Shown: positions 46,423-61,539 of the stretch, piece after piece
Layout: the number at the start of each line of letters is the position of its first letter
Position numbering within the stretch: position 1 is the stretch's first letter
Origin: an uncultured cyanobacterium
GTDB lineage: Bacteria; Cyanobacteriota; Cyanobacteriia; Phormidesmidales; Phormidesmidaceae
Length of the DNA stretch: 64,000 nucleotides
Reading direction: 5' to 3'
Assembly (NCBI GenBank): GCA_963793265.1
Contig: CAWBZI010000005.1
Coordinates: 128,001-192,000 of the forward strand
Notes under the pieces: model-generated
Told to the model about the DNA's origin: nothing
What the model saw: the letters and a program-made list of their open reading frames with translations, nothing else
Database searches by the model: none
Position numbers and translations under genes: made by a program

Positions 46423-46809
46423 CTATGAAAGCTGCCATAGTTTTTTGCAGTCATAGTCCTGAAAGGCTGAGTCGCGAGTAACGATAGTGACTGCCTCAGT
46501 CCGGCTCTGAGCAATGATCAGCCGATCAAAGGGATCTTTGTGATGCTGAGGAAGCTGCTCTAAATCTAGAATATGAGCAACGGTGATTGGTAAAAGCCTA
46601 ATGCCGTTAGATTGATGATGGTTCACCATTTCAGCTAGCGGCATATTCAGGTTAAGTTTTCCTATCTGCGTCTTAATTTGAATTTCCCAAAGTGAGACTA
46701 GGCTTACCAGCAGCTCTGAACGTTGCAGTAGCTCAAGCGTAGTAGCAGGAATGCGACTCGGCTCTCTGTCCCACCAGATAAATGTGTGCGTATCAAGCAG
46801 TAACTTCAT
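46423..46809 (-). CDS. vapC: VapC/PIN-domain toxin
   Basis: MKLLLDTH, SLWEI, HKDPFDRLIIAQ. Confidence 0.9.
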   Translation of the reverse strand: MKLLLDTHTFIWWDREPSRIPATTLELLQRSELLVSLVSLWEIQIKTQIGKLNLNMPLAEMVNHHQSNGIRLLPITVAHILDLEQLPQHHKDPFDRLIIAQSRTEAVTIVTRDSAFQDYDCKKLWQLS

Positions 46810-47014
46810 TTTCTCCCAGCCAGAATGAATCTGGCAGGGGGGCATCAAAATCGTCTGCCATCCAGTAGGGAGTGTCTTTGTGGAGTCCAGGAGTGGGGGA
46901 AGTGGGCGTGATGGGGTTTCGCTGACGGAGGAAGGCAGCAAAGTTGAGAACTTCTTGCTGCTGTTCGGGTGTCAGCGATCGCACTTCTGCGATTAAAGCT
47001 TGCTCGATACTCAT
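46793..47014 (-). CDS. DUF2281-type antitoxin
   Basis: L.PEQQQEVL.FA.FL and WMADDFDAPLP; overlaps the toxin start. Confidence 0.8.
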   Translation of the reverse strand: MSIEQALIAEVRSLTPEQQQEVLNFAAFLRQRNPITPTSPTPGLHKDTPYWMADDFDAPLPDSFWLGENEVTA

Positions 47015-47088
47015 AGTGTCTGCCTTCGTGACGTGCATTGAGATTATTGTAGCCCTACGCTGAGGCGAGACAGCCGCATAGCAGATAC

Positions 47089-47289
47089 TCACTGCTGAGC
47101 GATTGGAGAGGGAATGGGTTTTCCCTCTGCGGTAGCAGCCTCTAGCCAGGCTTGTTTGGCAATGGCTAGCTCTTGCAAGGCTTCGATAGGGGTTTTGCCA
47201 AAGGCGGAGCAGTAGGTAAGGTCGGGAATATCAGCAATATAGCCTTTGTCGTCTTCGCTATAAAAGATGTTGATGTGATGGTCTTTCAT
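47089..47289 (-). CDS. HicB-like antitoxin without adjacent hicA
   Basis: YS.ED.GYIADIPDL..CSAFG.TP.EAL...W......G..IP.P. Confidence 0.8.
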   Translation of the reverse strand: MKDHHINIFYSEDDKGYIADIPDLTYCSAFGKTPIEALQELAIAKQAWLEAATAEGKPIPSPIAQQ

Positions 47290-47462
47290 GGCTAGTCGTC
47301 TAAAAATAGTAAGGACTATGTTATCTCTACACCTATGCTATCAAGCTGTTGATCGATCCAGGAATTGGCACTTTTCTCATCGGTTTCGATGGCCCGTTCT
47401 GCGCCAATTTTTAGCATTTTCTATATAGTTGCTCAAATTGCGCATGAGGGAAACTCAACAGT

Positions 47463-47915
47463 ATGCTTACTTCAGCTCGCCCGGACGCCTCTGCGTCCGC
47501 CGTTCCCCCTGTCGGCAATTCGTACAAAGCTCTGCTGAAATATGAAAACATATTTGAGGTGTACTGGGTGACGAGCGATTTTCCCTCTGACGATATCTAT
47601 CTGAAAAGCCTATGTGAGCTTTATACAGAGATTGAAGTCGTAGAGATTAAGAAATACCTCGAAGAATGGAGTGCTGGAACATACGCAACGACCGCGCAAG
47701 GTGTGCTAGACCACGCTATTCGAAAAGGGATTGAACCGATAAAATACTTAAGGCGATGCCACAATTTCAATCGCAAAAGAGCGCGAAGAGTGCCTCCAAA
47801 GGGCTACCGACAGGATGGTTCAGCGGTTTACCGAAAGGATGGACAGTATTTGATCGTTCGATTAGATCAGTTCGGGATTGAGAAAGTTGTAAGTTTTGGT
47901 ATTTCCCAGGAGTAA
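47463..47915 (+). CDS. Hypothetical protein: first 20 aa shared with the 82-aa ORF, C-terminal toxin-like domain
   Basis: MLTSARPDASA..VPP.GNS N-terminus; basic C-terminus W..GTY......LDHA..KG.....YL....NF. Confidence 0.6.
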   Translation: MLTSARPDASASAVPPVGNSYKALLKYENIFEVYWVTSDFPSDDIYLKSLCELYTEIEVVEIKKYLEEWSAGTYATTAQGVLDHAIRKGIEPIKYLRRCHNFNRKRARRVPPKGYRQDGSAVYRKDGQYLIVRLDQFGIEKVVSFGISQE

Positions 47916-47917
47916 AG

Positions 47918-48334
47918 GTGATGACAATAGATGATGGCAGCCTCGAAATTAAGAGAAAACATGTTGCTCAGGTGCTGTCGCAGCTCACAATTGATTATCA
48001 GCTTGCGAAGGCTGAGCGTAGGCTTTTATCTGAATCTTTAGGTAGCGAAGATACGGCTTTTACTCTTATTGAAGAGCTAGAGTTGCTGACTGTGGGAATT
48101 CGTGGATGGGGATGTCAGTTTTCGGCAGCTACCAGCATAGAGAATACAAGGGAGGCGATCGCACAGCTAAGAGGTCTTAGGGTCTTCCAAGTACCGAATA
48201 TTACTGAGTTTTATTTTGACGAGTCAACACAGTCCGAGCGATTGAAGCTTTACATCAGTCTGCTAGACTATCTACGCTTGTTGTTGCTTGAGTACTTAGA
48301 GGCGATCGCTTCCGAAGAATCTATTGCCGCGTAG
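47918..48334 (+). CDS. Acidic helical hypothetical protein, possible immunity/antitoxin
   Basis: Starts 2 bp after the upstream stop; Glu/Leu-rich. Confidence 0.6.
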   Translation: MMTIDDGSLEIKRKHVAQVLSQLTIDYQLAKAERRLLSESLGSEDTAFTLIEELELLTVGIRGWGCQFSAATSIENTREAIAQLRGLRVFQVPNITEFYFDESTQSERLKLYISLLDYLRLLLLEYLEAIASEESIAA

Positions 48335-48391
48335 CTCGCACAATCGTTTTATTGCACAGCGCTTTTCTCTCCACATTCACATAATTTCCAC

Positions 48392-48420
48392 TTGACGGCA
48401 GCAAGGAATCAGATTATCGT
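48392..48420 (+). promoter_or_regulatory. sigma70-type promoter TTGACG-N17-TATCGT, copy 2
   Basis: Same boxes and spacing as copy 1. Confidence 0.6.
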
Positions 48421-48426
48421 CATCTC

Positions 48427-48650
48427 TAAGCTGTGATGCCTATCACAGTTGTTCTTGCCAGAACTCGATTTCGCTCAGCACTATCGATAGGTGGTGGAAC
48501 ACCTACCGATAGCTAACCCCCCGGACTAACCAGCAGTCTAGGCGGCTAGAGTCACTTTACTCTAGCCACCCCGATTTGCACTACATTTTCGCGGGGTGGC
48601 TTGGTTTAGTGGGGTTCTGGTTTCCTCAAAAATAAAGGAAATTCAACGTT
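48427..48650 (+). ncRNA. Putative structured 5' leader RNA, copy 2
   Basis: Hairpins CTGTGAT/ATCACAG, GTTCT/AGAAC, CTATCG.TAGGTG/CACCTA.CGATAG, GGCTAGAGT/ACTCTAGCC, GCCACCCCG/CGGGGTGGC. Confidence 0.55.
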
Positions 48651-48899
48651 ATGCTTACTTCAGCTCGCCCGGACGCCTCTGCGCCCACCGTTCCCCCTGT
48701 CGGTAATTCTTCGTTTCCCTCAGGCGATAGCCCCGAGATCGTCACTCACACCATACGCGGCTCCCTTCATGCGGTTCAAGCGACCATTCGCACTTTGTTC
48801 AAGCTCAACTATGCTGAGCCTAACGATTGGAGTAAGCCTGTGCCGACGGGCGATCGCAACGAAGTCATGGTTGTGTTGACCCGTCGTGTAAGACTGTAG
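48651..48899 (+). CDS. 82-aa hypothetical protein, copy 2
   Basis: Paralog of 8211-8459; AAAGGA RBS-like sequence upstream. Confidence 0.75.
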   Translation: MLTSARPDASAPTVPPVGNSSFPSGDSPEIVTHTIRGSLHAVQATIRTLFKLNYAEPNDWSKPVPTGDRNEVMVVLTRRVRL

Positions 48900-48969
48900 C
48901 GCTAGCCATACAGCGAGTTATCCAATGGCGATACGCTAAAACACGAAGGCAAATTGCCAAAAGCCTTAC

Positions 48970-49179
48970 ATGATCTGCCAAATCACCTGCATGATTCGGC
49001 AGATCATCAATACGATCCGTCGAATCATGCAGGTGATTTGCCGAACCATCAACACGATCTGCCGGATCACAAGGATGATTTGCCACCTCATCAACACGAT
49101 TTGCCAGATCATGAAAGTGATCTGTTGAAGTCGCTACGTACTTTGACAAAGTACGTGGGCGATCTGCCTTTCGTCTTTG
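48970..49179. repeat. 21-bp-periodic array of degenerate dyads (YGAT-N7-ATCA), about 10 units
   Basis: Units start at 48970, 48991, 49012, 49033, 49054, 49075, 49096, 49117, 49138 and 49159. Confidence 0.85.
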
Positions 49180-49315
49180 GCAATAAGTAGTCTTACAGAT
49201 AAGGCAATGTAATTTTTGTTGCTTTTGTCGGGCACTGTAATCACAGGCAGAGAACCTGTGAGCTTAGCGCGCTAGGGTTTCTGCACAACAACATTACTAC
49301 CTGGGCACATCCACT

Positions 49316-49702
49316 ATGCCAAGACAAAAGAAAAAATCCGCGGCCCTCCCTGACGCGGCCAAGCGCCTTTCAGGCATGAAGTCTATTGATCCTAAGCTCG
49401 ACTTCGGCGCAGGCTATTCTAATGCAGAGTTTGCCAAGCACATTGCCAAGGTAACCGCTAACCTGGATACCTACAACACACTGCTCTCTAAGGTTGATGA
49501 AGCCTACAATGCCTTCCTTGAGTCAGAAAAAGAGCTGTCAAAGTTTTCGGGCAAGATGCTGGCTAACGTGGCCATTCGCTATGACAAAGACAGCAGTGAG
49601 TATGAGATGGCAGGCGGGGTGAGGACGCGCGATCGCAAACGCCCTACACGAAAGGCCACTGCACCTAAAGCCACCACGCCTAAAGCCCTTGCTGCTGTGT
49701 AG
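49316..49702 (+). CDS. Basic helical 128-aa hypothetical protein
   Basis: KSIDPKLDFG.G, YN..LS.VD, Y.KDS.EYEMAGG.R..RKR; a family I recognise as recurrent and uncharacterised; followed by a terminator. Confidence 0.8.
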   Translation: MPRQKKKSAALPDAAKRLSGMKSIDPKLDFGAGYSNAEFAKHIAKVTANLDTYNTLLSKVDEAYNAFLESEKELSKFSGKMLANVAIRYDKDSSEYEMAGGVRTRDRKRPTRKATAPKATTPKALAAV

Positions 49703-51394: not shown

Positions 51395-51483
51395 AGGTGA
51401 TGCTCAAGAAAGTTTGAGCTTAGCACCGTTACCTGACGCTGGTTATCGAAGTGATAGATACTCGCTGCCCAATAAAGGCATTA

Positions 51484-51645
51484 GGGAGCTGCGCTCAAAT
51501 AAAGTACCGGCAAACCGACAAATATTGCCCTGGGCATAGCGTGCTAAGCCCCTACGTCACCGTCAATTTCTGTAGGGGCTTAGCACTGCTATGCCCGAGG
51601 CAATGAACAGCGCTATCAGCGGTACTTTATTTAGACGCATGTCCC
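51484..51645 (+). mobile_element. 162-bp MITE, copy 1 (25-bp imperfect TIRs, TTA target duplication, internal GTAG-REP-like doublet)
   Basis: Identical inverted copy at 60870-61031; TIRs GGGAGCTGCGCTCAAATAAAGTACC / GGGACATGCGTCTAAATAAAGTACC; TTA on both sides. Confidence 0.85.
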
Positions 51646-54513
51646 TTATAGCTGAGTCTCTATAAACTCTCGCAGTTGCTTGAGTTGAAACGCTTTCGCA
51701 AACTTCAGCAAGGGCTTGGTAAATCCAGCGCATTCTGGGTGGCTGCTTTGGATATCCTCAGCCTGCTTTACCAATTGATTTATCAGCCCCTTGCGGCTGA
51801 GGTCATGAAGCTTTTGAAGATCTTCTAGCGGCGGTAGAACAATCTCTGAAGGATCTGTTTGACTGCTTGAGGCATTGAGATTACCTGCTAGCTGAGAGGT
51901 TCCCGGCTGATCGCCCGCTCGCTCATAGCGCCATTCCAAGTTGAGTTGCTTTTTGATGGCTAAAAACAGACTGTCGGCCTGTACCGGCTTAGGAATGAAC
52001 TCATCTGCACCCGCGCTAAAACTCTTGTATTCATCGGCAGCAAAAACGCTCGCTGATGAAACAATAATAGGTACGCTCTTCAGTGGTGCTGGCAGTTCTC
52101 TAACATGCTTAATCATCTCGTAGCCGCCCATCACAGGCATAGCAATGTCGGTAATAATCAAATCTGGTGAATGGTCTTTGGCTTTTTGCAATCCTTCTTC
52201 GCCGTTGTGCGCCTCAATTACCCTAAAGCCGACAGGCTCTAGCAAATGGGTCACCACCGATCGGTTTTCCCAACGGTCGTCAACTACTAGCACAGTGCGC
52301 TCAGCCCCATCAAAGCCTACAATCGTCCCCTGGGGCGCGCTGATAGAAGAGGTCATCCAATCCCCGGCTTCGGTCGCGGTTATATCAAACCAGAACAGGC
52401 TACCCTGGTTAGGCTCGCTGCGTACTTCTAGCGTTGTATCCATCAAAGCGACGATTTTCGACGTAATTGCTAGCCCAAGCCCCGTGCCTTCTGATTGTTT
52501 ACGAGTATCGCCCACCTGCTCAAAGGGTAAAAAGATTTTCTCTATCTGCGCTTCTGACATGCCAATGCCAGTATCTTCAATCTGAAACCGCAGGTTATAA
52601 GAAACTGGCGACTCGGTTGGGTGATGCTGGCTACTACCGGCTAAGTGAGTGGCGGGTTGAGCTTTGACAATAAATTTTACGTGGCCTGCATCTGTAAACT
52701 TGATCGCGTTGCCTAAAAGGTTAATAAGCACCTGGCGCAATCGCTTTTCATCAGCATAGATACCCGTTGGCAGTATCCCATCGACTTCGTAAATGAAGTC
52801 AACCTGTTTTTGCTCTGCTTTAATCCTACAAATTTCAGCAATGCCCTGTAGAAAAGAAGAGAAATGAAACTCATTAGGATGAAGATCCATCTTTTGCGCT
52901 TCAATTTTAGAGAGATCAAGAATGTCGTTGATTAAGGTCAGCAGATGCGCCCCGCACTGGTTGATAATGCCAGCACCCTTTTGTTCTTTTTCAGGAAGCT
53001 GCTTTGATCGCAGCAAAATTTGAGCGTATCCCAAGATTCCGTTTAACGGTGTGCGCAGCTCGTGGCTCATGTTTGCTAAGAAGTCACTTTTAGCGCTATT
53101 GGCAACTTCAGCAAGTTCTTTCGCTTCTTTAAGCTCAGCAGTGCGCTGTTCTACACGAATCTCTAGCGCTTCGTTACTATCAGCAAGCGCTGTAAAAGAC
53201 TCTCGTAGCTGCTGAGCCATCCGATTAAAGGCAGAAGAGAGTACGTTTAGCTCACTAACCGCAGAACTTTTTACGGTTTGATTGAGGTTGCCGCTGGCAA
53301 TAGATTCTGAGGCTTCGCTGAGCTGGCGAATGGGCTGGGAGATCCAGCGGGAGGTGAGATAGCCCAAGATGAGCGCGATCGCTAAAGACATCAGGCACAA
53401 AACAATCGTCGTTCGCGTGTTTTTGTTGATTTGGCCCATAAAGTCTGACTCTGGCACCACGACCACAACCAGCCAGTCTAACCCTGTACCCTCGCCCCAG
53501 GGCATTACCTGCAAAAACTGACGCTCACCATCAAGCCTAAACGTAAGCTGCTCGGACGACTGAATATCACCCAGTCCACCAAAATTCTCAACAAGCTGAT
53601 CGACAGCGGCCCGCGCTATTGAGCTGTCTATTTCTGAAACGTGAAGCCTGACAGGCAGATCGTCAACAATATCGAAGGGCTGGTGTTTGCCTGAGCTGGC
53701 AACGAGCATACCATCTCGCTCCATCACAAAGGTGCGGCTGTTGGGGCTGATGCGTAAGTCTCTTAAAAAGTCGCTGATTTGGAGTAAAAGCTGCTCGACG
53801 CCGATGGCACCGATGAGCTGACCGTCAGCGTCATAAATCGGGCTGGCGTAGGCGATCGCGAGCGGAAAAGGGTTAATTTCCCAGCTATATACCGAACTCC
53901 ACACGGGCTTTTTGGCTGCGATCGCCTCTGGATACCAGCTCTCCGATTGAAAGTCATAAACATCAGGATCAAAGGCGAGCTTCGTTCGATTCCCCTCACT
54001 GTCCGACTTGTAGGCATACTGATTATTGTTGCCGCGCTTTGCCGGGGCAATCTCACTGATAACCACGCTATCCACGCTAGGGTCGTAGCCCGAGTCAGCA
54101 TAGTATCCAGACTCAGTGCCAAACATCACAAAGCCAACGTCATGCACCTGTCTGTTTTGCCAGAACAAATCGCCTAGCTGCCCGACCTCCTCAGGATTCA
54201 ACAGCCCCATGCGAAACAAGTTAACGTTGTTCTGCACGATTTTAGCAGGCGCAGACATATAGCCGTCGAGGTGCAGCGAGATTCGTTTGCTCGCTTCTTC
54301 TTCTAGCTGAGCTGCCAAATCTTCGACCGCCTCGCGACCGTTGCGTAAGGATAAGTATCCGGTAATCCCGACGGCTGCAAATATTTGGATGGCAAACGGA
54401 ACGACTAAAATCAGCCTTAGCGGTAGCGCTCTACGGCCACCATCAGGCTGCCGCCCGTGCAAGCTTTGTTTTTGAGCTTCAAGCGGCCTGTCGGAAATAT
54501 GAGACTGTTTCAT
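51646..54513 (-). CDS. Hybrid sensor histidine kinase (TM-dCache-TM-HAMP-HisKA-HATPase-REC)
   Basis: [41 protein letters not shown]...DIAMP.M.G. Confidence 0.92.
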
Positions 54514-54566
54514 TTTAATTCTGGACTGTCGTATTTGAGCGCGAGACTGCTGTTTTTAAGCCTGTT

Positions 54567-55160
54567 TTAAGCCCGAACACCTGGCACTTTGATCCGCTTT
54601 CTTAAGATGAGCACCATCATAGTTGAGGCCAAAGCAAATAGATAAAACGGGTAGGGAATAGATGCTAGGTTCCAGTCACCAGAAAATAGAATAGTGACAA
54701 AGTTCAGCGTATTTCCCGTCCAGAAAACGGCCCACGAAAGGACATCTTCGGTATCAGGTTCAAGGTAAGTTTTGCGAATAGTCGGCAGCGCGCCCGTAGC
54801 ATCAATCACTAAGTTAATAGTGAGCGCTAGAATCGGACTGTTGGTAAGCTGCCACAGAATGAGACTAACAAAGGAGATAATGAGGCAGGCAATATCGAAC
54901 TTTTCTAAGGCGTCTGCTTTGCCATACTTAAAAGAGAGTATGCCAATAATAGAGGGGCCAATAGCGTAGGTGAGCATCAGCCAAAAGGTTTCGTGCTCTC
55001 CGGCGGCAAAATAGCTGGCAAAAGCCGCCCAGCCAACGACGCTCCAAATCCACCAGGTTGCCGGATTGGGCGTTGTTTTTCGTTTGACAATAGCGAGGAT
55101 GTAAGGGATGTAGCCTAAAAGGCCGATGATGCCTGCGATTTTAGCGAGTTCGGCAATCAT
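54567..55160 (-). CDS. Small membrane protein, PQ-loop/SemiSWEET-like duplicated repeat
   Basis: IPYI..I.K..T.P...TW and LPTI.K.Y..P..E...W repeats; ATGA overlap with the upstream reductase stop. Confidence 0.65.
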   Translation of the reverse strand: MIAELAKIAGIIGLLGYIPYILAIVKRKTTPNPATWWIWSVVGWAAFASYFAAGEHETFWLMLTYAIGPSIIGILSFKYGKADALEKFDIACLIISFVSLILWQLTNSPILALTINLVIDATGALPTIRKTYLEPDTEDVLSWAVFWTGNTLNFVTILFSGDWNLASIPYPFYLFALASTMMVLILRKRIKVPGVRA

Positions 55161-56296
55161 AGTGCGTGAGGGGTGTGAATGAGCTGAGAATGATGAGCGG
55201 CGGCTTTAGGAATAAAGCCCTTTTGAACAAAGTAGTTGAGATAGGTGCTAAGCAGCTGACGATCGGCGGGCGGGCATTTGATAAGCTCGCCTTTGAGTCC
55301 GCGCTCTGTATTAGCACAGTCAAAGACGTAGTGGCCGCCTAGCCATAGCTCTAAGCAGGTTTGTTGTTCTTCTGGGCTGGCCTTGGCTGTAAAAGCCGCT
55401 AAGGTGCTTAGCTCGTTGGGCTGCGTGTAGAGCTGGTTTAGCCAGTCGGAATAGTTTGTGGGCGCGATCGCATAGCCCCTAGCCTGCAAGGTTGCCACCA
55501 GCTCCTTTAAATCAATAGGCTGAGGATTAACGATGTGAAACACCTTGCCAATCGCCTCAGGCTGATAGGAGAGTCGAGCGATCGCCTTGCTCACATAGTC
55601 CACAGGGGTCATATCTACCCGCATTGCCAAATCAGGCGCTGCCTGGAGCTGAATCAGGCTTTTGATAAAGCGGCACAGCACATCATTAGTATTAGAGTCT
55701 CCTTGTTGGCTATGCCCGGTCACCATCCCCGGACGATACAGACAAACCGGCAGTCCTTTTGCCGCTGCTTTCATCACTAGCTTCTCAGCGATCCATTTGC
55801 TTTGGGCATAGCCGCCCGAAATTCCATCTCCCTGCGCAATGCTGTCATTTTCATAAAAGACATCCGTGCCCATTCTGGCCAGAGACTCGAAAACATCCAG
55901 GGTAGAAATATGATGAAGCACCTTGAATCTACCCGTGGTTGCAAGCTGAATGACAGATTGGGTACCGCCGACATTAGCGCCTTTAAGAGCGGTGTAAGGA
56001 TAAAACATATTGACGTTAGCGCCGCTGTGATAGATAGCGCTAACCGATTGGGCAATCAGTTGAAACTGGGCCTCATCCATGCCCAAAAGCGGCCTGGTCA
56101 AATCTCCCATTACCGGCACAATGCGATCGTAGGCAATCTCGGCGGGCGGCAAATACTTCTCTAAAGAAGTTCGTAGCTTCTGCTGAGCTTCTACCGCGTT
56201 GTGGGCTCGAATAAGACAGTAAATTTTAGCGGTAGCGGACTGTTGTAAAAGCGCCTGTAGCAGAAAAGCCCCCAGAAATCCGGTTGCGCCTGTCAT
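55157..56296 (-). CDS. Thioester reductase (R) domain, C-terminal part of the frameshifted A-T-R enzyme
   Basis: TGATGFLG, NV.GT, GY.QSKW.AE, RPG.V.G. Confidence 0.88.
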   Translation of the reverse strand: MTGATGFLGAFLLQALLQQSATAKIYCLIRAHNAVEAQQKLRTSLEKYLPPAEIAYDRIVPVMGDLTRPLLGMDEAQFQLIAQSVSAIYHSGANVNMFYPYTALKGANVGGTQSVIQLATTGRFKVLHHISTLDVFESLARMGTDVFYENDSIAQGDGISGGYAQSKWIAEKLVMKAAAKGLPVCLYRPGMVTGHSQQGDSNTNDVLCRFIKSLIQLQAAPDLAMRVDMTPVDYVSKAIARLSYQPEAIGKVFHIVNPQPIDLKELVATLQARGYAIAPTNYSDWLNQLYTQPNELSTLAAFTAKASPEEQQTCLELWLGGHYVFDCANTERGLKGELIKCPPADRQLLSTYLNYFVQKGFIPKAAAHHSQLIHTPHAL

Positions 56297-56369
56297 AAAG
56301 ATGCCGTTTGGCGCTGTGCTTCTATCTGCGATCGCCTGCCTCTGCCAGCAGTTTACAGCAGTCCAACAG

Positions 56370-58268
56370 TCAGCCGCTTCCTGCTGTAGCTGCAGGTAGG
56401 CTCATATGCTCGCTTAAGCGGTGCCGATCGGTTTTGGTTTGGCCTACCAGCATCGCCATACTCGCCACCGATGGCATCGCCAAAAAGTCTTTGAGCGGGA
56501 TGCTGAGGCTGTGGTTTTTCTCAACGTAGGAGATTAGCTCCATAGTTTGCAGCGAATTGCCGCCTAGCTCAAAGAAATTGTCATTGACGCCAACTTTAAC
56601 AACGCCTGTGACCTTAGCCCACAGGGCTGCTAGCTCAGCTTCAAGCGGCGTACGCGGGGCAACATAAGCTTCTGCGAGGGCCGGACGCTCTAGCGTCGGG
56701 GCAGGCAAAGCTCTCTTATCTACTTTACCGTTGGCACTCAGCGGCAGGGTATCTAGCAGCATAAAAGCAGCAGGTACCATGTAGCCAGGAAGCTTGCCCT
56801 GAATGTGGGCACGCAGGCTAGGAATTTCGCCAGAAATAAGCTGAGGTAGCGTCTGCTCGGATCGAATCTTTTCATTGAGCACAACATAGGCCACCAGGCG
56901 CTTGTCACCGGGGATGTCTTCTCTGGCTAGCACAATCGCCTGTCGAACCTTGGCATGTTGTTCTAGTACGGTTTCAATTTCGCTCAGCTCTATGCGAAAG
57001 CCGCGAATCTTCTCCTGCTTATCAGCTCGACCGAGAAATTCTAGATGTCCATCGTCTCTTTGCTGTACGCGATCGCCCGTTTTATAAAGCCGAATGCTGC
57101 CTTTATCTTGAACTGAAATACAAGGATAGCTCTCAGCCGTTAGCTCAGGCCGATTGAAATATCCCCGTGCGAGCCCCTTGCCGCCAATATAAAGCTCGCC
57201 AATCAATCCGGCTAAGACGGGCTGACGCTGTTCGTCTAAAACATAAACTTGAACATTGTTGAGCGGTTTGCCAATCGGCAGAATCCGATTTTTGTGCGTC
57301 TCTACAGCATAGGGGCCAGCCAAATCGCATAGGGTTGTTACCACGGTGGCTTCTGTTGGGCCGTAGGTGTTCACTAGCCGAACGTGAGGCGGGGCATGTT
57401 GTTTCCACAGGTTGAGCCACTGGGGCACGGCGCGTTCGCCACCGATAATGACCAGACGGAGCGCGTCGGGAAACTCAGCGTCAGCCAGATCGGCGCAGAG
57501 CTTATGCCAGAAGGCAGTAGGCAAGTCAATCACCGAGATTTCCCAGCGCTGGCAGGTCTGTAAAAAAGCTGAGGTAGAGCGCAGCATTTCGGGCGATCGC
57601 AGCACCAGCGTAGCCCCGTGAGTCAGCGTGGCAAAAATCTCTTCGACTGAAATATCGAAGCTAATAGAGGCAAACTGTAGGACGCGATCGGCAGGCGATA
57701 GCTGATAGGTAGCACCCACCGACTGCACAAAGTTTATAAGCGCCGGGTGTTCAATCATCACACCTTTAGGCTTGCCAGTAGAGCCGGAGGTGTAGATAAC
57801 ATAGGCAAGCTGAGCGTCTAGTAAAACATCCAGATTCTCATCCGTTTGTTGGCCAATGATGTCTCCATCTGTCTCTATACAAACCACATCAGTAATTGTA
57901 TTGAACAGATTTTTGGTACGCACGCTATCTGCGATTAGCACCGGCACCTGCGCCTCTGCAACAATCAGATCGATCCGCTCCTGCGGATAGTCGGGGTCGA
58001 TAGGAACGTAGGCACCGCCTGCTTTGAGTACAGCAATCAGGGCGATCACCATTTGGGGCGATCGCGCCATACAAACGCCCACCAAGGTTTCTGAGCGAAC
58101 GCCCTTCTGTTGTAGATAGCGAGCGAGCTGATTAGCCTGCGCGTTTAGCTGCTGGTAGCTGTAGTGTTGGTCTTGATAAATGAGTGCGATCGCTTCAGGG
58201 GTTGCAGCTACCTGCTGCTCAATCCACAGGTGAATGCATAGATGCTGATTGCCTTCTGATGAAGTCAT
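56370..58268 (-). CDS. NRPS adenylation + thiolation didomain, N-terminal part of the A-T-R enzyme
   Basis: YTSGSTGKPKG, SFD, YGPTE, YKTGD, NGKVD, PCP motif FFELGGNSL; no condensation domain. Confidence 0.92.
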   Translation of the reverse strand: MTSSEGNQHLCIHLWIEQQVAATPEAIALIYQDQHYSYQQLNAQANQLARYLQQKGVRSETLVGVCMARSPQMVIALIAVLKAGGAYVPIDPDYPQERIDLIVAEAQVPVLIADSVRTKNLFNTITDVVCIETDGDIIGQQTDENLDVLLDAQLAYVIYTSGSTGKPKGVMIEHPALINFVQSVGATYQLSPADRVLQFASISFDISVEEIFATLTHGATLVLRSPEMLRSTSAFLQTCQRWEISVIDLPTAFWHKLCADLADAEFPDALRLVIIGGERAVPQWLNLWKQHAPPHVRLVNTYGPTEATVVTTLCDLAGPYAVETHKNRILPIGKPLNNVQVYVLDEQRQPVLAGLIGELYIGGKGLARGYFNRPELTAESYPCISVQDKGSIRLYKTGDRVQQRDDGHLEFLGRADKQEKIRGFRIELSEIETVLEQHAKVRQAIVLAREDIPGDKRLVAYVVLNEKIRSEQTLPQLISGEIPSLRAHIQGKLPGYMVPAAFMLLDTLPLSANGKVDKRALPAPTLERPALAEAYVAPRTPLEAELAALWAKVTGVVKVGVNDNFFELGGNSLQTMELISYVEKNHSLSIPLKDFLAMPSVASMAMLVGQTKTDRHRLSEHMSLPAATAGSG

Positions 58269-58590
58269 GATTCCTGTGGTGAAGGTGAAAAACGCATACT
58301 TTGCGCACCTTTTGCACACCTATGGCGACAGTGTATGTCGATAGACAATCCATAAGGTTGATTGGGAGCAAGGTACTTTAAATACATTGCCCATCTCATA
58401 TCAACCTTTCAACATCAAAGAAAACCTGATGCCTCCTCTAGATTTATGCGTAAAATCAGCCTTATTACTTAATATCAGCTACCGATAAATAAAGATGATG
58501 CTGCTGGCAGATTCGGGAATATTTATACAAATACAGTTGATACGTCCTGAATTCTAGACATTCCAACCCTCCAGGTTAAAAGTAGGTTAC

Positions 58591-59943
58591 ATGCTCTCTT
58601 CTGCTGATACTCAAAGCATCTTAATTGTTGACGACAACCCGACAAACTTAGAAGTGCTCTCTGAGTCTTTGAGTGAGGAGGGCTTTCAAGTAGCGGTTGC
58701 TATAGATGGCGAAAGCGCACTAGAGCAGGTAAGCTATCATCCGCCCTCCTTAATTTTGCTAGATGTGATGATGCCAGGCATTGATGGCTTTGAAACCTGC
58801 GTTCGCCTTAAAGCCAACCCAGAGACTCAAGATATTCCAGTAATTTTTATGACAGCCCTATCCGATACTGATAAAAAGGTAAAAGGACTGTCATTAGGGG
58901 CCGTAGACTACATCACTAAGCCCTTTGAGTACGAAGAAGTCAGAGCGCGGGTGCGGGTGCATCTTAAGGTTGAAAACCTGACAAAAACGCTACAGCACCA
59001 AAACCAACAGTTAGAAATTCGCGTAGAACAACGGACGAAAGCGCTATCAGACGCTCTTAAAAAGCTTCAGCTCACTCAGGTTGAACTGATTCAGCGAGAA
59101 AAGCTATCGGCGCTTGGCCAGCTCGTGGCAGGCATTGCCCACGAAATCAACAATCCGATCAATTTTATCCATGGCAATATCGAACACGCTAGTAACTACA
59201 CTCATGACTTACTAGAGATAGTCAATCTCTATCAGCAGTCTTGCCCAGCGCTTTCGCCTGAGATTCAAGCGCAGATAGACGATATTGACGTAGATTTTTT
59301 ATCAGAAGATTTGCCCAAACTCATACGTTCAATGCAGGTCGGCACAGACCGCATTCGTAGCATTGTTTTGAGCTTGCGCATTTTCTCTCGGCTGGATGAA
59401 GCTGAAATTAAAGATGTGGATTTGCACGAAGGCATTGATAGCACCTTGATGATCTTAAATAGCCGACTAAAAGCACAGTCAACCCGAGCAGATATTTTAG
59501 TGGTTAAAGAATACGGCGACCTGCCGCAGGTGAAGTGCTATCCTGGCCAGCTCAATCAGGTTTTTATGAATATTTTAAGCAACGCGATTGATGCGCTAGA
59601 AGAGCAGTATGCAAAAAACAGCCTACGCGACGACACTGACAGTAGCTGGCATCCTGAGATTAAGATTCGAACAGAGCAGTGTGACGCTGAGAAGGTTAGC
59701 ATCCATATTGCGGATAACGGTATGGGCATTCCAGAGGCGCTGCAACAGAAGATTTTTGATCCTTTTTTCACAACAAAGGCAGTGGGCAAAGGAACCGGTT
59801 TGGGGATGTCTATTAGCCATGAAATTGTCACTGAAAAGCACCACGGAACGCTATCCGTCTGTACGCTATCTCCCCACGGAACTCAGTTCACAATCACAAT
59901 TCCAACTTTTCAGAATGGGCCAAAGCTGAACGCATTCAATTAA
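58591..59943 (+). CDS. REC-histidine kinase hybrid (cytoplasmic)
   Basis: ILIVDD, LLDVMMP, AHEINNP, NQVFMN, DNG.G, GTGLG. Confidence 0.92.
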
Positions 59944-59975
59944 GATGCGAGTCTACGCTAGTTTGACAAAACATC

Positions 59976-60863
59976 ATGGCACCATCAGCATTAAGCCGAC
60001 AGCAGCCTACTATGATTGGGTTTACGGCCATTTTGATGTGGGCGACATTGGGGCTACTGACCAAGCTAAGCGGGGAGATACCGCCCTTTCAGCTCACGGC
60101 CATGTCGTTTACGATCGCCTTTACAATCGGGATAGCGACTTGGATACGAAGTGGGGAGAATCCACTGCACTTGATAAAGCTGCCTAAGAGAGTTTGGGCT
60201 ACCGGAATTACCGGACTATTCGGCTATCATCTTTTTTACTTTGTTGCTTTGGCTAATGCGCCTGTCGTTGAGGCCGGATTGATTGCCTACTTGTGGCCTT
60301 TGTTGATTGTGTTGCTTTCTGCTTTGTTGCCGGGTGAGCGGCTGAGGTGGTTTCATGTGGTGGGTGCGATCGCTGGCTTCATCGGCGTGTCTCTATTGGT
60401 CACAAAAGGCCAGTCCTTAACTCTCGATCCTCAATACACCATAGGCTATGTAGCAGCCTTCTCCTGCGCCCTCATCTGGTCAATCTATTCAATCGTATCT
60501 CGTCAGTTCGGCACGATTTCAACCAGCGCAGTCGGTGGATTTTGTGGGGCAACAGCTATTCTCTCCTGGGTTTTCCACGTTCTGTTTGAAGCGACTGTTT
60601 GGCCTGTAGGCTGGCAGTGGGTGGCCGTTATCTGCTTAGGGCTTGGGCCAGTCGGGCTCGCCTTTTTCACCTGGGACTACGGCGTCAAGCATGGCAACAT
60701 CAAAGTGTTAGGGCTCCTTTCCTATCTCTCTCCTTTACTGTCCACTATCTTGCTTATTGTCTGTGGGCTTGCTGAATCTAGCTGGTTTGTGTGGTTGGGC
60801 TGTTTGCTCATAGTCGGCGGCGCACTGCTGGGCGTTCTAGATTTTTTTAAGTCAGATATTTAG
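59976..60863 (+). CDS. EamA/DMT exporter (YddG-like)
   Basis: PPFQL.A, GLFGYH..YF.AL, IAYLWPLLIV, AFF.WDYG.K.G. Confidence 0.88.
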   Translation: MAPSALSRQQPTMIGFTAILMWATLGLLTKLSGEIPPFQLTAMSFTIAFTIGIATWIRSGENPLHLIKLPKRVWATGITGLFGYHLFYFVALANAPVVEAGLIAYLWPLLIVLLSALLPGERLRWFHVVGAIAGFIGVSLLVTKGQSLTLDPQYTIGYVAAFSCALIWSIYSIVSRQFGTISTSAVGGFCGATAILSWVFHVLFEATVWPVGWQWVAVICLGLGPVGLAFFTWDYGVKHGNIKVLGLLSYLSPLLSTILLIVCGLAESSWFVWLGCLLIVGGALLGVLDFFKSDI

Positions 60864-60869
60864 AGCTAA

Positions 60870-61031
60870 GGGACATGCGTCTAAATAAAGTACCGCTGAT
60901 AGCGCTGTTCATTGCCTCGGGCATAGCAGTGCTAAGCCCCTACAGAAATTGACGGTGACGTAGGGGCTTAGCACGCTATGCCCAGGGCAATATTTGTCGG
61001 TTTGCCGGTACTTTATTTGAGCGCAGCTCCC
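60870..61031 (-). mobile_element. 162-bp MITE, copy 2
   Basis: Exact reverse complement of 51484-51645; TAA on both sides. Confidence 0.85.
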
Positions 61032-61212
61032 TAATTGCAAAGACGGCTACGACGAAGAGGCGCGGAGTCGAGACTTTTATAAGTCGGGTGATGACAAAAT
61101 TGTTTTTTGTAAGGCGATCGCATCTCTACCATCAAACTGAGCAACGATAGCAATATCATTTACAATTAAGTCTCAGCATAGTATCGAATCAGTAAAGATA
61201 ACGCTTGCCACG

Positions 61213-61539
61213 ATGATTAAACTAGAACCTTTTATATATGAGCGACTGACTGCAAAACCAGCTCAAATCCGTGAGTTCTGTCAGCGCTGGAAAATCAATG
61301 AAATGGCGCTATTCGGTTCGGTTCTTCGGAGCGACTTTCGGTTAGACAGCGACATTGACGTTTTAGTTGATTTTGCTAAAAATGCTGAGTGGAACCTATT
61401 TGACTACGTTCATATGCAAGATAAGCTAGGCACTATCTTTAAGCGAAAAGTCGATATTGCAGAGGAACGCGGACTGACGAACCCTTACAGAAGACGTGCC
61501 ATTCTAAGCACTTGCCAAAGCATCTACACAGCCGAATAA
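61213..61539 (+). CDS. Minimal nucleotidyltransferase (MNT/MntA-type antitoxin)
   Basis: LFGS..R.DF..DSDIDVLV, R.VD. Confidence 0.88.
   Translation: MIKLEPFIYERLTAKPAQIREFCQRWKINEMALFGSVLRSDFRLDSDIDVLVDFAKNAEWNLFDYVHMQDKLGTIFKRKVDIAEERGLTNPYRRRAILSTCQSIYTAE

What the first reader, a model, noticed from the sequence alone, without database searches (positions are those of the whole stretch)
51646..60863. Candidate autoinducer-like cassette: A-T-R synthetase, transporters and matched sensor kinases
Seen: one strand carries A-T-R NRPS-like enzyme > coupled PQ-loop-like membrane protein > dCache hybrid kinase; the divergent strand carries REC-kinase > EamA exporter. There are no tailoring enzymes. 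Known: single-module A-T-R enzymes release amino aldehydes that can cyclise or dimerise to imines, pyrazines or piperazines, and synthase-sensor co-location is typical of quorum-sensing loci. Inference: a cyanobacterial make/export/sense circuit for a small amino-acid-derived signal, which I do not recognise as described.
Basis: partly seen in the sequence, partly recalled or inferred. Interest (0 to 1): 0.85.

Follow-up and report, generated by a model that had tools for sequence, protein, structure and literature searches.

The report
Cyanobacterial signal-maker and matched sensor cassette
A small enzyme that probably turns one amino acid into a signal molecule sits beside a sensor whose pocket appears matched to that molecule, and the pairing recurs in many chemical versions across cyanobacteria, making it a strong but untested candidate for a new cell-to-cell signalling family.

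Summary
The core is four genes: an A-T-R synthetase (predicted Arg/Lys), a PQ-loop-fold membrane protein, a dCache hybrid kinase and a REC-kinase. All four co-occur in 8 of 8 genus relatives, in several gene orders. The window's frameshift is most likely an assembly error; the EamA gene is a bystander.

Across cyanobacteria, 52 of 61 assessable stand-alone A-(MT)-T-R genes have a histidine kinase within 3 kb, against 3 of 44 control NRPS/PKS genes. In 43 pairs the sensor domain follows the synthetase (rho 0.53) and the kinase core of the same protein does not (0.09). The sensor tree splits into basic, primary-amine and secondary-amine product classes (grouping made after seeing the tree): N-methylating Ala/Gly enzymes pair with Pro-type sensors, pointing to product, not substrate, sensing. 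The carboxylate-binding Arg of amino-acid dCache sensors is absent in 48 of 48.

No product, binding or expression data exist, so quorum sensing is inferred. Ten literature searches found no description; the scan noted an analogous Legionella pair on other DNA.

The parts
55157..58268 (-). Stand-alone A-T-R NRPS-like synthetase (1036 aa when intact). Specificity code DIEDIGTVV(K), predicted Arg/Lys. One extra base near 56394 in this assembly splits T from R.
   Evidence: domains; base missing in 3 of 3 covering runs; intact P0078, motifs; code
54567..55160 (-). 197-aa membrane protein with PQ-loop/SWEET/cystinosin fold, translationally coupled to the synthetase; probable transporter of the cationic product (inferred)
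   Evidence: fold; co-conservation; fused to the sensor kinase in L114/L265
51646..54513 (-). dCache_1-HAMP-HisKA-HATPase-REC hybrid sensor kinase. Pocket Y186/E191/W193/Y209/E240, with Glu where amino-acid sensors have the carboxylate-binding Arg.
58591..59943 (+). REC-HisKA-HATPase relay kinase, no DNA-binding domain; conserved partner
   Evidence: a REC-kinase of at least 50% identity over 400 aa in 27 of 66 synthetase loci, 0 of 61 controls
58269..58590 (.). AT-rich divergent intergenic region (38% GC over 58320-58590), presumed shared promoter region
   Evidence: the promoter scan was not above chance
59976..60863 (+). YddG-type EamA exporter; neighbour, not part of the conserved cassette
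   Evidence: NF050091, 388 bits against cut-off 300
51483..51645 (+). 163-nt palindromic MITE-like repeat, left copy, inserted at the kinase stop codon; strain-level insertion
60870..61032 (-). Second, inverted copy of the same repeat, just after EamA

Best explanation
A self-made-signal circuit. The A domain activates a basic amino acid (Arg or Lys; predicted), the T domain carries it, and the R domain releases it with NAD(P)H as the amino aldehyde (which may cyclise or dimerise) or the amino alcohol (inferred from ATRed chemistry; the oxidation level is unknown). The PQ-loop protein moves this cationic product across the inner membrane (inferred). The periplasmic dCache domain, whose pocket has lost the carboxylate-binding Arg, binds the product and switches the hybrid kinase, which signals through the REC-kinase (inferred). 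The locus is one dialect of a cyanobacteria-wide family in which amino acid choice, N-methylation, racemisation or halogenation change the product and the sensor domain changes with it. The most likely role is population or neighbour sensing in mats and biofilms. Shown: gene content, conservation, enrichment, sensor-synthetase matching, pocket residues. Inferred: product, transport, binding, output.
For: Four genes together in 8 of 8 genus loci found through the membrane protein, in several orders and flanks. Kinase within 3 kb of 52 of 61 assessable A-(MT)-T-R genes against 3 of 44 controls; counting the set-aside loci, 52 of 66 against 3 of 61; background 7%. In 43 pairs: sensor~A rho 0.53, kinase core~A 0.09; partial sensor~A given kinase 0.53 (p=0.001), kinase~A given sensor 0.06 (p=0.16); the nearest sensor from another family has the same chemotype in 23 of 27, the kinase core in 3 of 27. 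Reciprocal swaps: window/L050 sensor 70% and kinase 40%; window/L015 sensor 45% and kinase 78%. Ala and Ala+MT A domains average 62% identity but their sensors 17%, while Ala+MT sensors are 51% to Gly+MT and 40% to Pro sensors; amine class needs 2 changes on the sensor tree (the minimum), 5 on A, 6 on R and 15 on kinase trees. Arg at the R126-equivalent site in 0 of 48 sensors, Glu/Asp in 33. Sensors at least 70% identical to the window's lie beside the synthetase in 5 of 5 cases among 173 genomes. A MATE gene follows the synthetase in two basic-type loci that lack the PQ-loop gene.
Against: No product, binding, transport or expression result. L011 has the same code and a 70% identical A domain but a sensor only 36% identical. 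Related acidic-pocket dCache kinases at 36-45% occur with no synthetase nearby: 5 of the 6 loci fetched at 9-10 kb, L294-L298. 9 of 61 assessable synthetases have no kinase within 3 kb. Substrates are code predictions, and one paper's table calls the related DAEDIGTVVK Glu at 70%. The amine classes were drawn after seeing the tree. Loci were picked from the top of ranked hit lists, kin are not independent, and many controls are orthologues of each other. Most family members have no transporter nearby. No Hpt or transcription factor is encoded, so the output and any positive feedback are unknown.
Confidence: 0.62

Rival explanations
1. The sensor does bind the product, but the product is mainly a defensive, allelopathic or osmoprotective metabolite (for example an argininal-like protease inhibitor or a choline-like amino alcohol). 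The kinase only provides feedback on its own production, not population-level signalling.
For: All matching evidence shows self-sensing, not density control. Tailoring genes are typical of bioactive compounds. Distribution is patchy (membrane protein in 9 of 36 genus genomes), and one relative is decaying (L013: internal A-domain deletion and split kinase).
Against: Downstream genes are general signalling outputs (REC-kinases, REC-GGDEF, GGDEF-EAL, GAF-cyclase, SpoIIE), and one Gly-type synthetase lies near a dCache chemoreceptor (L227). Gly/Ala products would be very simple molecules. Other cyanobacterial NRPS clusters rarely have a kinase beside them (3 of 44).
Confidence: 0.2
2. The dCache kinase senses an outside cue (host or neighbour amines, or the substrate amino acid) and regulates the synthetase. 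Sensor and enzyme match only because they are inherited as a block.
For: Orphan relatives of the sensor exist. L011 pairs the same enzyme type with another sensor. Linked genes share history; R domains also track chemotype in 20 of 27.
Against: The kinase core in the same polypeptide does not track the enzyme. Ala and Ala+MT enzymes share substrate and A-domain clade yet have sensors from different clades. The pocket lacks the Arg that binds an amino acid's carboxylate.
Confidence: 0.13
3. A chance cluster, or a dead locus: a frameshifted NRPS remnant among abundant kinase genes, caught between two mobile repeats.
For: The frameshift in the window; 77 kinase ORFs in the genome; repeats on both sides.
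Against: The extra base is absent in 3 of 3 covering runs; intact protein P0078; conservation and enrichment. The repeat was not found at full length in 5 relatives searched, so it post-dates the cassette.
Confidence: 0.03

Closest known systems
ATRed minimal NRPS of Xenorhabdus indica (xind01729; Tietze et al. 2020, PMC7586950, passages read) and fungal piperazine A-T-R enzymes
   Same: A-T-R architecture; reductive release of an amino aldehyde that can dimerise to a pyrazine
   Different: Phe substrate; the paper says the function was not addressed and the passages read mention no receptor. Here the predicted substrates are Arg/Lys, Gly, Ala or Pro, with or without N-methylation, each beside a matched dCache kinase.
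Synthase plus sensor-kinase quorum-sensing loci: Vibrio CqsA/CqsS, Legionella LqsA/LqsS/LqsR, Ralstonia PhcB/PhcS/PhcR (recalled, no call)
   Same: Signal synthase next to its cognate membrane kinase; PhcR is also a REC-kinase relay (recalled)
   Different: Those synthases are PLP aminotransferase-like or SAM methyltransferases making lipid-type signals, with non-Cache sensors (recalled). Here an NRPS-like reductase and a dCache_1 domain, in cyanobacteria, with several chemotypes.
dCache_1AA amino-acid and dCache_1AM amine sensors (bioRxiv 10.1101/2023.04.06.535858, passages read)
   Same: Fold and the Y121, W128 and Y144 positions; loss of R126 as in amine sensors
   Different: R126 is Glu and D173 is Glu in the window. 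The ligand is proposed to be self-made. The full AM motif is in a figure that I could not see.
Anabaenopeptin synthetase ApnA A1 domain (PDB 4d4g; PMC5311044, section 15 read)
   Same: Closest solved single A domain (E 1e-136). Codes DVEDIGAIEK (Arg) and DVEDIGGVEK (Arg+Lys) resemble the window's DIEDIGTVVK.
   Different: ApnA is part of a multimodule peptide line; here the A domain stands alone with T and R.
Legionella cluster C formyl-A-T-Red NRPS (Tobias et al. 2016, PMC5126622, passages read; scan note e1-4181871)
   Same: Single-module reductive NRPS proposed to make a signal; the scan note reports a kinase partner
   Different: Different phylum and sensor class.
PQ-loop/SWEET transporters (cystinosin, SWEET, KDELR)
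   Same: Seven-helix fold, Z 14.1 over 193 of 197 residues
   Different: 7-13% identity, no Pfam hit; substrate and direction unknown

Membership tests
ATRed minimal NRPS | A-T-R with no condensation domain | tested here: met
ATRed minimal NRPS | Intact A3/A6/A7/A10, carrier Ser, Rossmann and YxxxK motifs; a PPTase in the genome | tested here: met
ATRed minimal NRPS | Two-electron release of an amino aldehyde, giving a pyrazine or piperazine | not testable with these tools
   Needs expression and LC-MS; an alcohol or cyclic monomer is equally possible
Synthase/sensor-kinase quorum-sensing loci (Cqs, Lqs, Phc) | Synthase gene conserved beside a membrane sensor kinase | tested here: met
   52 of 61 against 3 of 44
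Synthase/sensor-kinase quorum-sensing loci (Cqs, Lqs, Phc) | Sensor specificity co-varies with synthase type | tested here: met
   exception L011
Synthase/sensor-kinase quorum-sensing loci (Cqs, Lqs, Phc) | Synthase homologous to CqsA/LqsA or PhcB (enzyme classes recalled) | tested here: not met
   The synthase is AMP-binding/PP-binding/NAD_binding_4; it works like these systems but is not a member
Synthase/sensor-kinase quorum-sensing loci (Cqs, Lqs, Phc) | Product binds the sensor; density-dependent response | not testable with these tools
   No binding or expression data available
dCache_1AA amino-acid sensor | Arg at the PctA R126 position, binding the ligand carboxyl | tested here: not met
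   Glu in the window; Arg in 0 of 48 linked sensors (alignment less sure for distant clades); role of R126
dCache_1AM amine sensor | Full AM motif | tested here: inconclusive
   W128/Y144 kept and R126 lost as in AM domains, but D173 is Glu and the motif figure could not be seen
PQ-loop/SWEET superfamily | Seven-helix fold with internal triple-helix repeat | tested here: met
PQ-loop/SWEET superfamily | Pfam PQ-loop or MtN3 profile match | tested here: inconclusive
   0 of 24 members listed at E<=1; one weak LAB_N hit
YddG aromatic amino acid exporter | NCBIfam NF050091 cut-off | tested here: met
   388 against 300 bits; not co-conserved with the cassette

The most novel reading that the evidence does not exclude
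A class-wide cyanobacterial quorum-sensing family in which minimal NRPS reductases make amino-aldehyde or amino-alcohol autoinducers in many dialects (basic, primary-amine, secondary-amine; methylated, racemised, halogenated). Each is read by a dCache domain that has been swapped onto different kinase, c-di-GMP and chemotaxis outputs, with orphan sensors eavesdropping on neighbours.
Probability: 0.45. Interest if true: 0.93.

Novelty: new variant of a known kind. Interest (0 to 1): 0.86.

Why it matters
Few quorum-sensing systems are known in cyanobacteria (PMC7690835, passage read), although mats, biofilms and blooms depend on collective behaviour. This family supplies named synthase and receptor pairs with predicted, simple products, so the question becomes directly testable: express one enzyme, purify one periplasmic domain, measure binding. 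It would also give a function to a widespread orphan class of NRPS-like genes, ligands to many orphan dCache kinases, and a set of orthogonal sender/receiver pairs for synthetic biology.

Tried and rejected
EamA as the exporter: rejected. Its orthologue is in 15 of 45 other genus genomes, and none of those 15 loci has a synthetase or REC-kinase orthologue in its 1.5 kb flanks; it is absent from 8 of 8 cassette loci. A different EamA paralogue lies convergent to the REC-kinase in L015, with similar untested membrane ORFs in L016 and L018.

True pseudogene: rejected.

Pfam/NCBIfam for the membrane protein: nothing. Promoter and terminator scans: not above shuffles. Rfam: 0 matches. Expression: no RNA holder listed, which is no evidence either way.

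'Charged products always need a transporter': not general. A nearby transporter is seen for the DIED/DVEN types but for only 1 of 9 DTE-type and 1 of 9 other basic+MT loci; the hydropathy filter also missed two known PQ-loop genes.

Outside cyanobacteria: the genome-collection scan used patterns close to one protein and gave 1 stand-alone A-T-R among 73 other loci, with no kinase beside it, so the range outside the class is untested. Plasmids: none of the 25 listed best hits was a close full-length relative.

Composite-transposon origin from the flanking repeats: not supported. Each copy has its own TTA duplication, and relatives hold the cassette without the repeat.

Literature searches for the system and for specificity codes found no description. 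The library lacks most subscription journals, and bioRxiv supplements were closed.
Full report
Observation. On the minus strand an A-T-R synthetase (58268 to 55157) is followed by a 197-aa membrane protein whose start overlaps the synthetase stop (ATGA) and, 53 bases later, by a 955-aa dCache_1-HAMP-HisKA-HATPase-REC kinase. Divergently lie a 450-aa REC-HisKA-HATPase and an EamA protein that passes the NCBIfam cut-off for YddG. Titles of the closest named relatives are Phormidesmis-type cyanobacteria.

The frameshift. In the window T and R are in different frames. Contigs from 3 of 3 runs that cover the place (two studies; the fourth run laid has no cover) lack one base at 56394 and share two further nearby substitutions. 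One run may be the window's own source sample, so this is not three independent tests. An intact 1036-aa protein, P0078, equals the window's first 625 residues and keeps the catalytic motifs. The genome has a PPTase-family gene. I read the break as an assembly error.

The conserved unit. The membrane protein was found in 9 of 36 other genus genomes and 0 of 24 genomes of other families. In the 8 with a close orthologue, synthetase, membrane protein, dCache kinase and REC-kinase are together in 8 of 8, in several orders and different flanks; the ninth (28% identity) has no synthetase. The YddG orthologue is in none of the 8 loci and sits elsewhere in the 15 of 45 genus genomes that have it. A different EamA lies next to the REC-kinase in L015. 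The membrane protein has no profile hit, but its model (pLDDT 87.7) matches cystinosin, SWEET and KDELR folds (Z 14.1 over 193 residues). In one genome it is fused in frame to the sensor kinase (L114/L265; a single case). In two basic-type loci without it, a MATE gene follows the synthetase.

A class-wide family. I searched 173 family genomes with an intact orthologue and 401 class genomes with its R domain, and fetched 120 further neighbourhoods, chosen from the top of those ranked lists by open-frame length. With the first 8, 127 loci were classified by domain content; L052 was dropped because its contig ends before R. A kinase lies within 3 kb of 35 of 42 assessable A-T-R and 17 of 19 A-MT-T-R genes, in 9 of 10 and 6 of 7 families. 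Controls: 2 of 29 other R-terminated NRPS/PKS genes and 1 of 15 A-T genes without R. Kinase-negative loci with under 3 kb of flank were set aside (5 test, 17 control); counting them gives 52 of 66 against 3 of 61. A random 3.1-kb segment of this genome has a kinase that close 7% of the time. Kin are not independent and many controls are mutual orthologues, so I give no p value. Genes between or beside synthetase and kinase include NNMT-type methyltransferases, alanine racemase (once fused), a HalD halogenase with a SET protein, and MATE. Downstream genes include REC-kinases, REC-GGDEF, GGDEF-EAL, GAF-cyclase and SpoIIE.

Predicted substrates. The window's code is DIEDIGTVV(K). The closest solved single A domain is ApnA A1; my extraction gives it DVESIGVIA, the code printed in Table 2 of PMC5311044 (section 15 read), where DVEDIGAIEK goes with Arg and DVEDIGGVEK with Arg plus Lys. 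A supplement of PMC4558948 (rows seen) lists, as predictions, DLFNNALTYK Ala, DVQFIAHVVK Pro, DIIQLGVVWK Gly and DVENVGAITK Arg; it also calls DAEDIGTVVK Glu at 70%, which is against my 'basic' label for that group. So Arg/Lys is likely, not shown. That the inserted methyltransferase acts on nitrogen is inferred from its position (recalled).

Sensors match products. Of 53 synthetase/kinase pairs I dropped 5 (two permease-like multi-helix sensors, two truncated kinases, one with a deleted A domain) and 5 whose H-box my pattern missed, leaving 43. Sensor identity follows A-domain identity (rho 0.53; partial 0.53, p=0.001 by permutation, which ignores relatedness); the kinase core of the same protein does not (0.09; partial 0.06, p=0.16). 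The nearest sensor from another family has the same chemotype in 23 of 27 cases, the kinase core in 3 of 27. Reciprocal swaps are plain: window/L050 (same code type) sensor 70% and kinase 40%; window/L015 (different code) 45% and 78%; L015/L051 (same code) 69% and 41%. On FastTree trees chemotype needs 10 changes on the sensor tree (minimum 9) and 24 on the kinase tree. The sensor tree has three clades: basic products; Ala and Gly; and Pro with methylated Ala and Gly. Ala and Ala+MT A domains average 62% identity while their sensors average 17%; Ala+MT sensors are 51% to Gly+MT and 40% to Pro sensors. Methylation is a property of the product, not of the substrate, which is the best argument that the sensor reads the product. 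I defined these amine classes after seeing the tree.

The pocket. The sensor is a dCache fold. Aligned to Vibrio amino-acid receptors, it keeps the Y121, W128 and Y144 positions but has Glu for R126 and Glu for D173. R126 binds the ligand carboxyl and is lost in amine sensors (bioRxiv 10.1101/2023.04.06.535858, passages read). None of 48 linked sensors has Arg there and 33 have Glu or Asp (the alignment is less sure across clades). This fits a ligand whose carboxyl has been reduced.

Against. L011 has the same code and a 70% identical A domain but a 36% identical sensor. Sensors at least 70% identical to the window's sit beside the synthetase in 5 of 5 cases among 173 genomes, but relatives at 36-45% are often alone (5 of 6 loci fetched at 9-10 kb); these may be eavesdroppers, or evidence of a general amine-sensing clade. 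Nine assessable synthetases lack a nearby kinase. One relative is decaying (L013). Most members have no transporter nearby. No Hpt or transcription factor is encoded here. Nothing tests product, binding or density dependence.

Mechanism. Most likely (0.62): Arg or Lys is adenylated, tethered and reductively released; the PQ-loop protein moves the cation out; the dCache kinase binds it and signals through the REC-kinase; the role is population sensing. Rivals: feedback sensing of a defensive or protective metabolite (0.2); sensing of an outside cue with block inheritance (0.13); chance or a dead gene (0.03).

Known systems and novelty. The enzyme has the architecture of Xenorhabdus ATRed (PMC7586950, passages; PMC8658869, passages), whose function was not addressed. 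The logic is that of Cqs, Lqs and Phc loci (recalled), but the synthase and sensor classes differ, so it works like them without being a member. A myxobacterial pyrazinone affects aggregation (PMC10979478, abstract). Legionella monomodular NRPS were proposed as signal sources (PMC5126622, passages), and an unchecked scan note reports a kinase partner there. Two cyanobacterial genome-mining papers show no sign of this pairing in the passages and supplement rows that I searched (PMC4247773; PMC4558948). Searches found no description; the library lacks most subscription journals. A 2020 review says that few quorum-sensing systems are known in cyanobacteria (PMC7690835, passage).

Verdict. A real, intact, conserved synthase/sensor cassette, and one member of an apparently undescribed, chemically diversified cyanobacterial family. 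Novelty: new variant of a known kind. Interest 0.86.

Noticed in passing
L015:9876-11939, L016:8291-10297, L018:8671-10635: In three species the PQ-loop protein is fused in frame to a Mutator/IS256 transposase domain (654-687 aa). Synonymous sites are saturated (pS 0.78-0.80) while pN is 0.36-0.39, and the later DDE residues look decayed (motif positions recalled). It looks like a domesticated dead transposase on a membrane protein.
   Followed up: partly
window 51483-51645 and 60870-61032: 163-nt palindromic MITE-like element with TTA/TAA target duplication, 19 copies in the genome. Two inverted copies bound the five-gene block exactly, and 3 of 13 gaps between copies are under 10 kb, all inverted pairs. 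Not found at full length in 5 relatives; no Rfam match.
   Followed up: partly
L114:1200-4494 (also L265): PQ-loop protein fused in frame to the dCache hybrid kinase; the open frame runs to the contig end
   Followed up: partly
L102:3582-7775, L106:3441-6503: Two Gly-type synthetases pair with kinases whose sensor is a multi-helix domain (amino-acid-permease-like by Pfam in L102) instead of dCache
   Followed up: no
L227:3689-6562: A Gly-type A-T-R lies about 5 kb from a dCache-HAMP-GAF-MCP chemoreceptor, a possible chemotaxis output
   Followed up: no
L106:6639-10817; L096:12321-13550; L097:12346-13607: Tailoring variants: A-T-R fused to alanine racemase; a free racemase; HalD halogenase plus SET protein between synthetase and kinase
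   Followed up: no
L216:1323-11214; L290: Some larger R-terminated NRPS genes are also followed by a HAMP/Cache hybrid kinase, so the family may include dipeptide-aldehyde members
   Followed up: no
L065, L068, L069: Pro-type A-T-R genes without a dCache kinase lie about 3.3 kb from a FIST-domain protein and soluble kinase pair
   Followed up: no
L013:7228-13404: Decaying copy of the cassette: in-frame deletion within the A domain and a split hybrid kinase
   Followed up: no
window 46423-49702 and 61213-61539: PIN/DUF2281 toxin-antitoxin-like pair, unannotated small ORFs (two begin with the same 20 or so residues, at 47463 and 48651) and a nucleotidyltransferase antitoxin-like gene flank the region
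   Followed up: no
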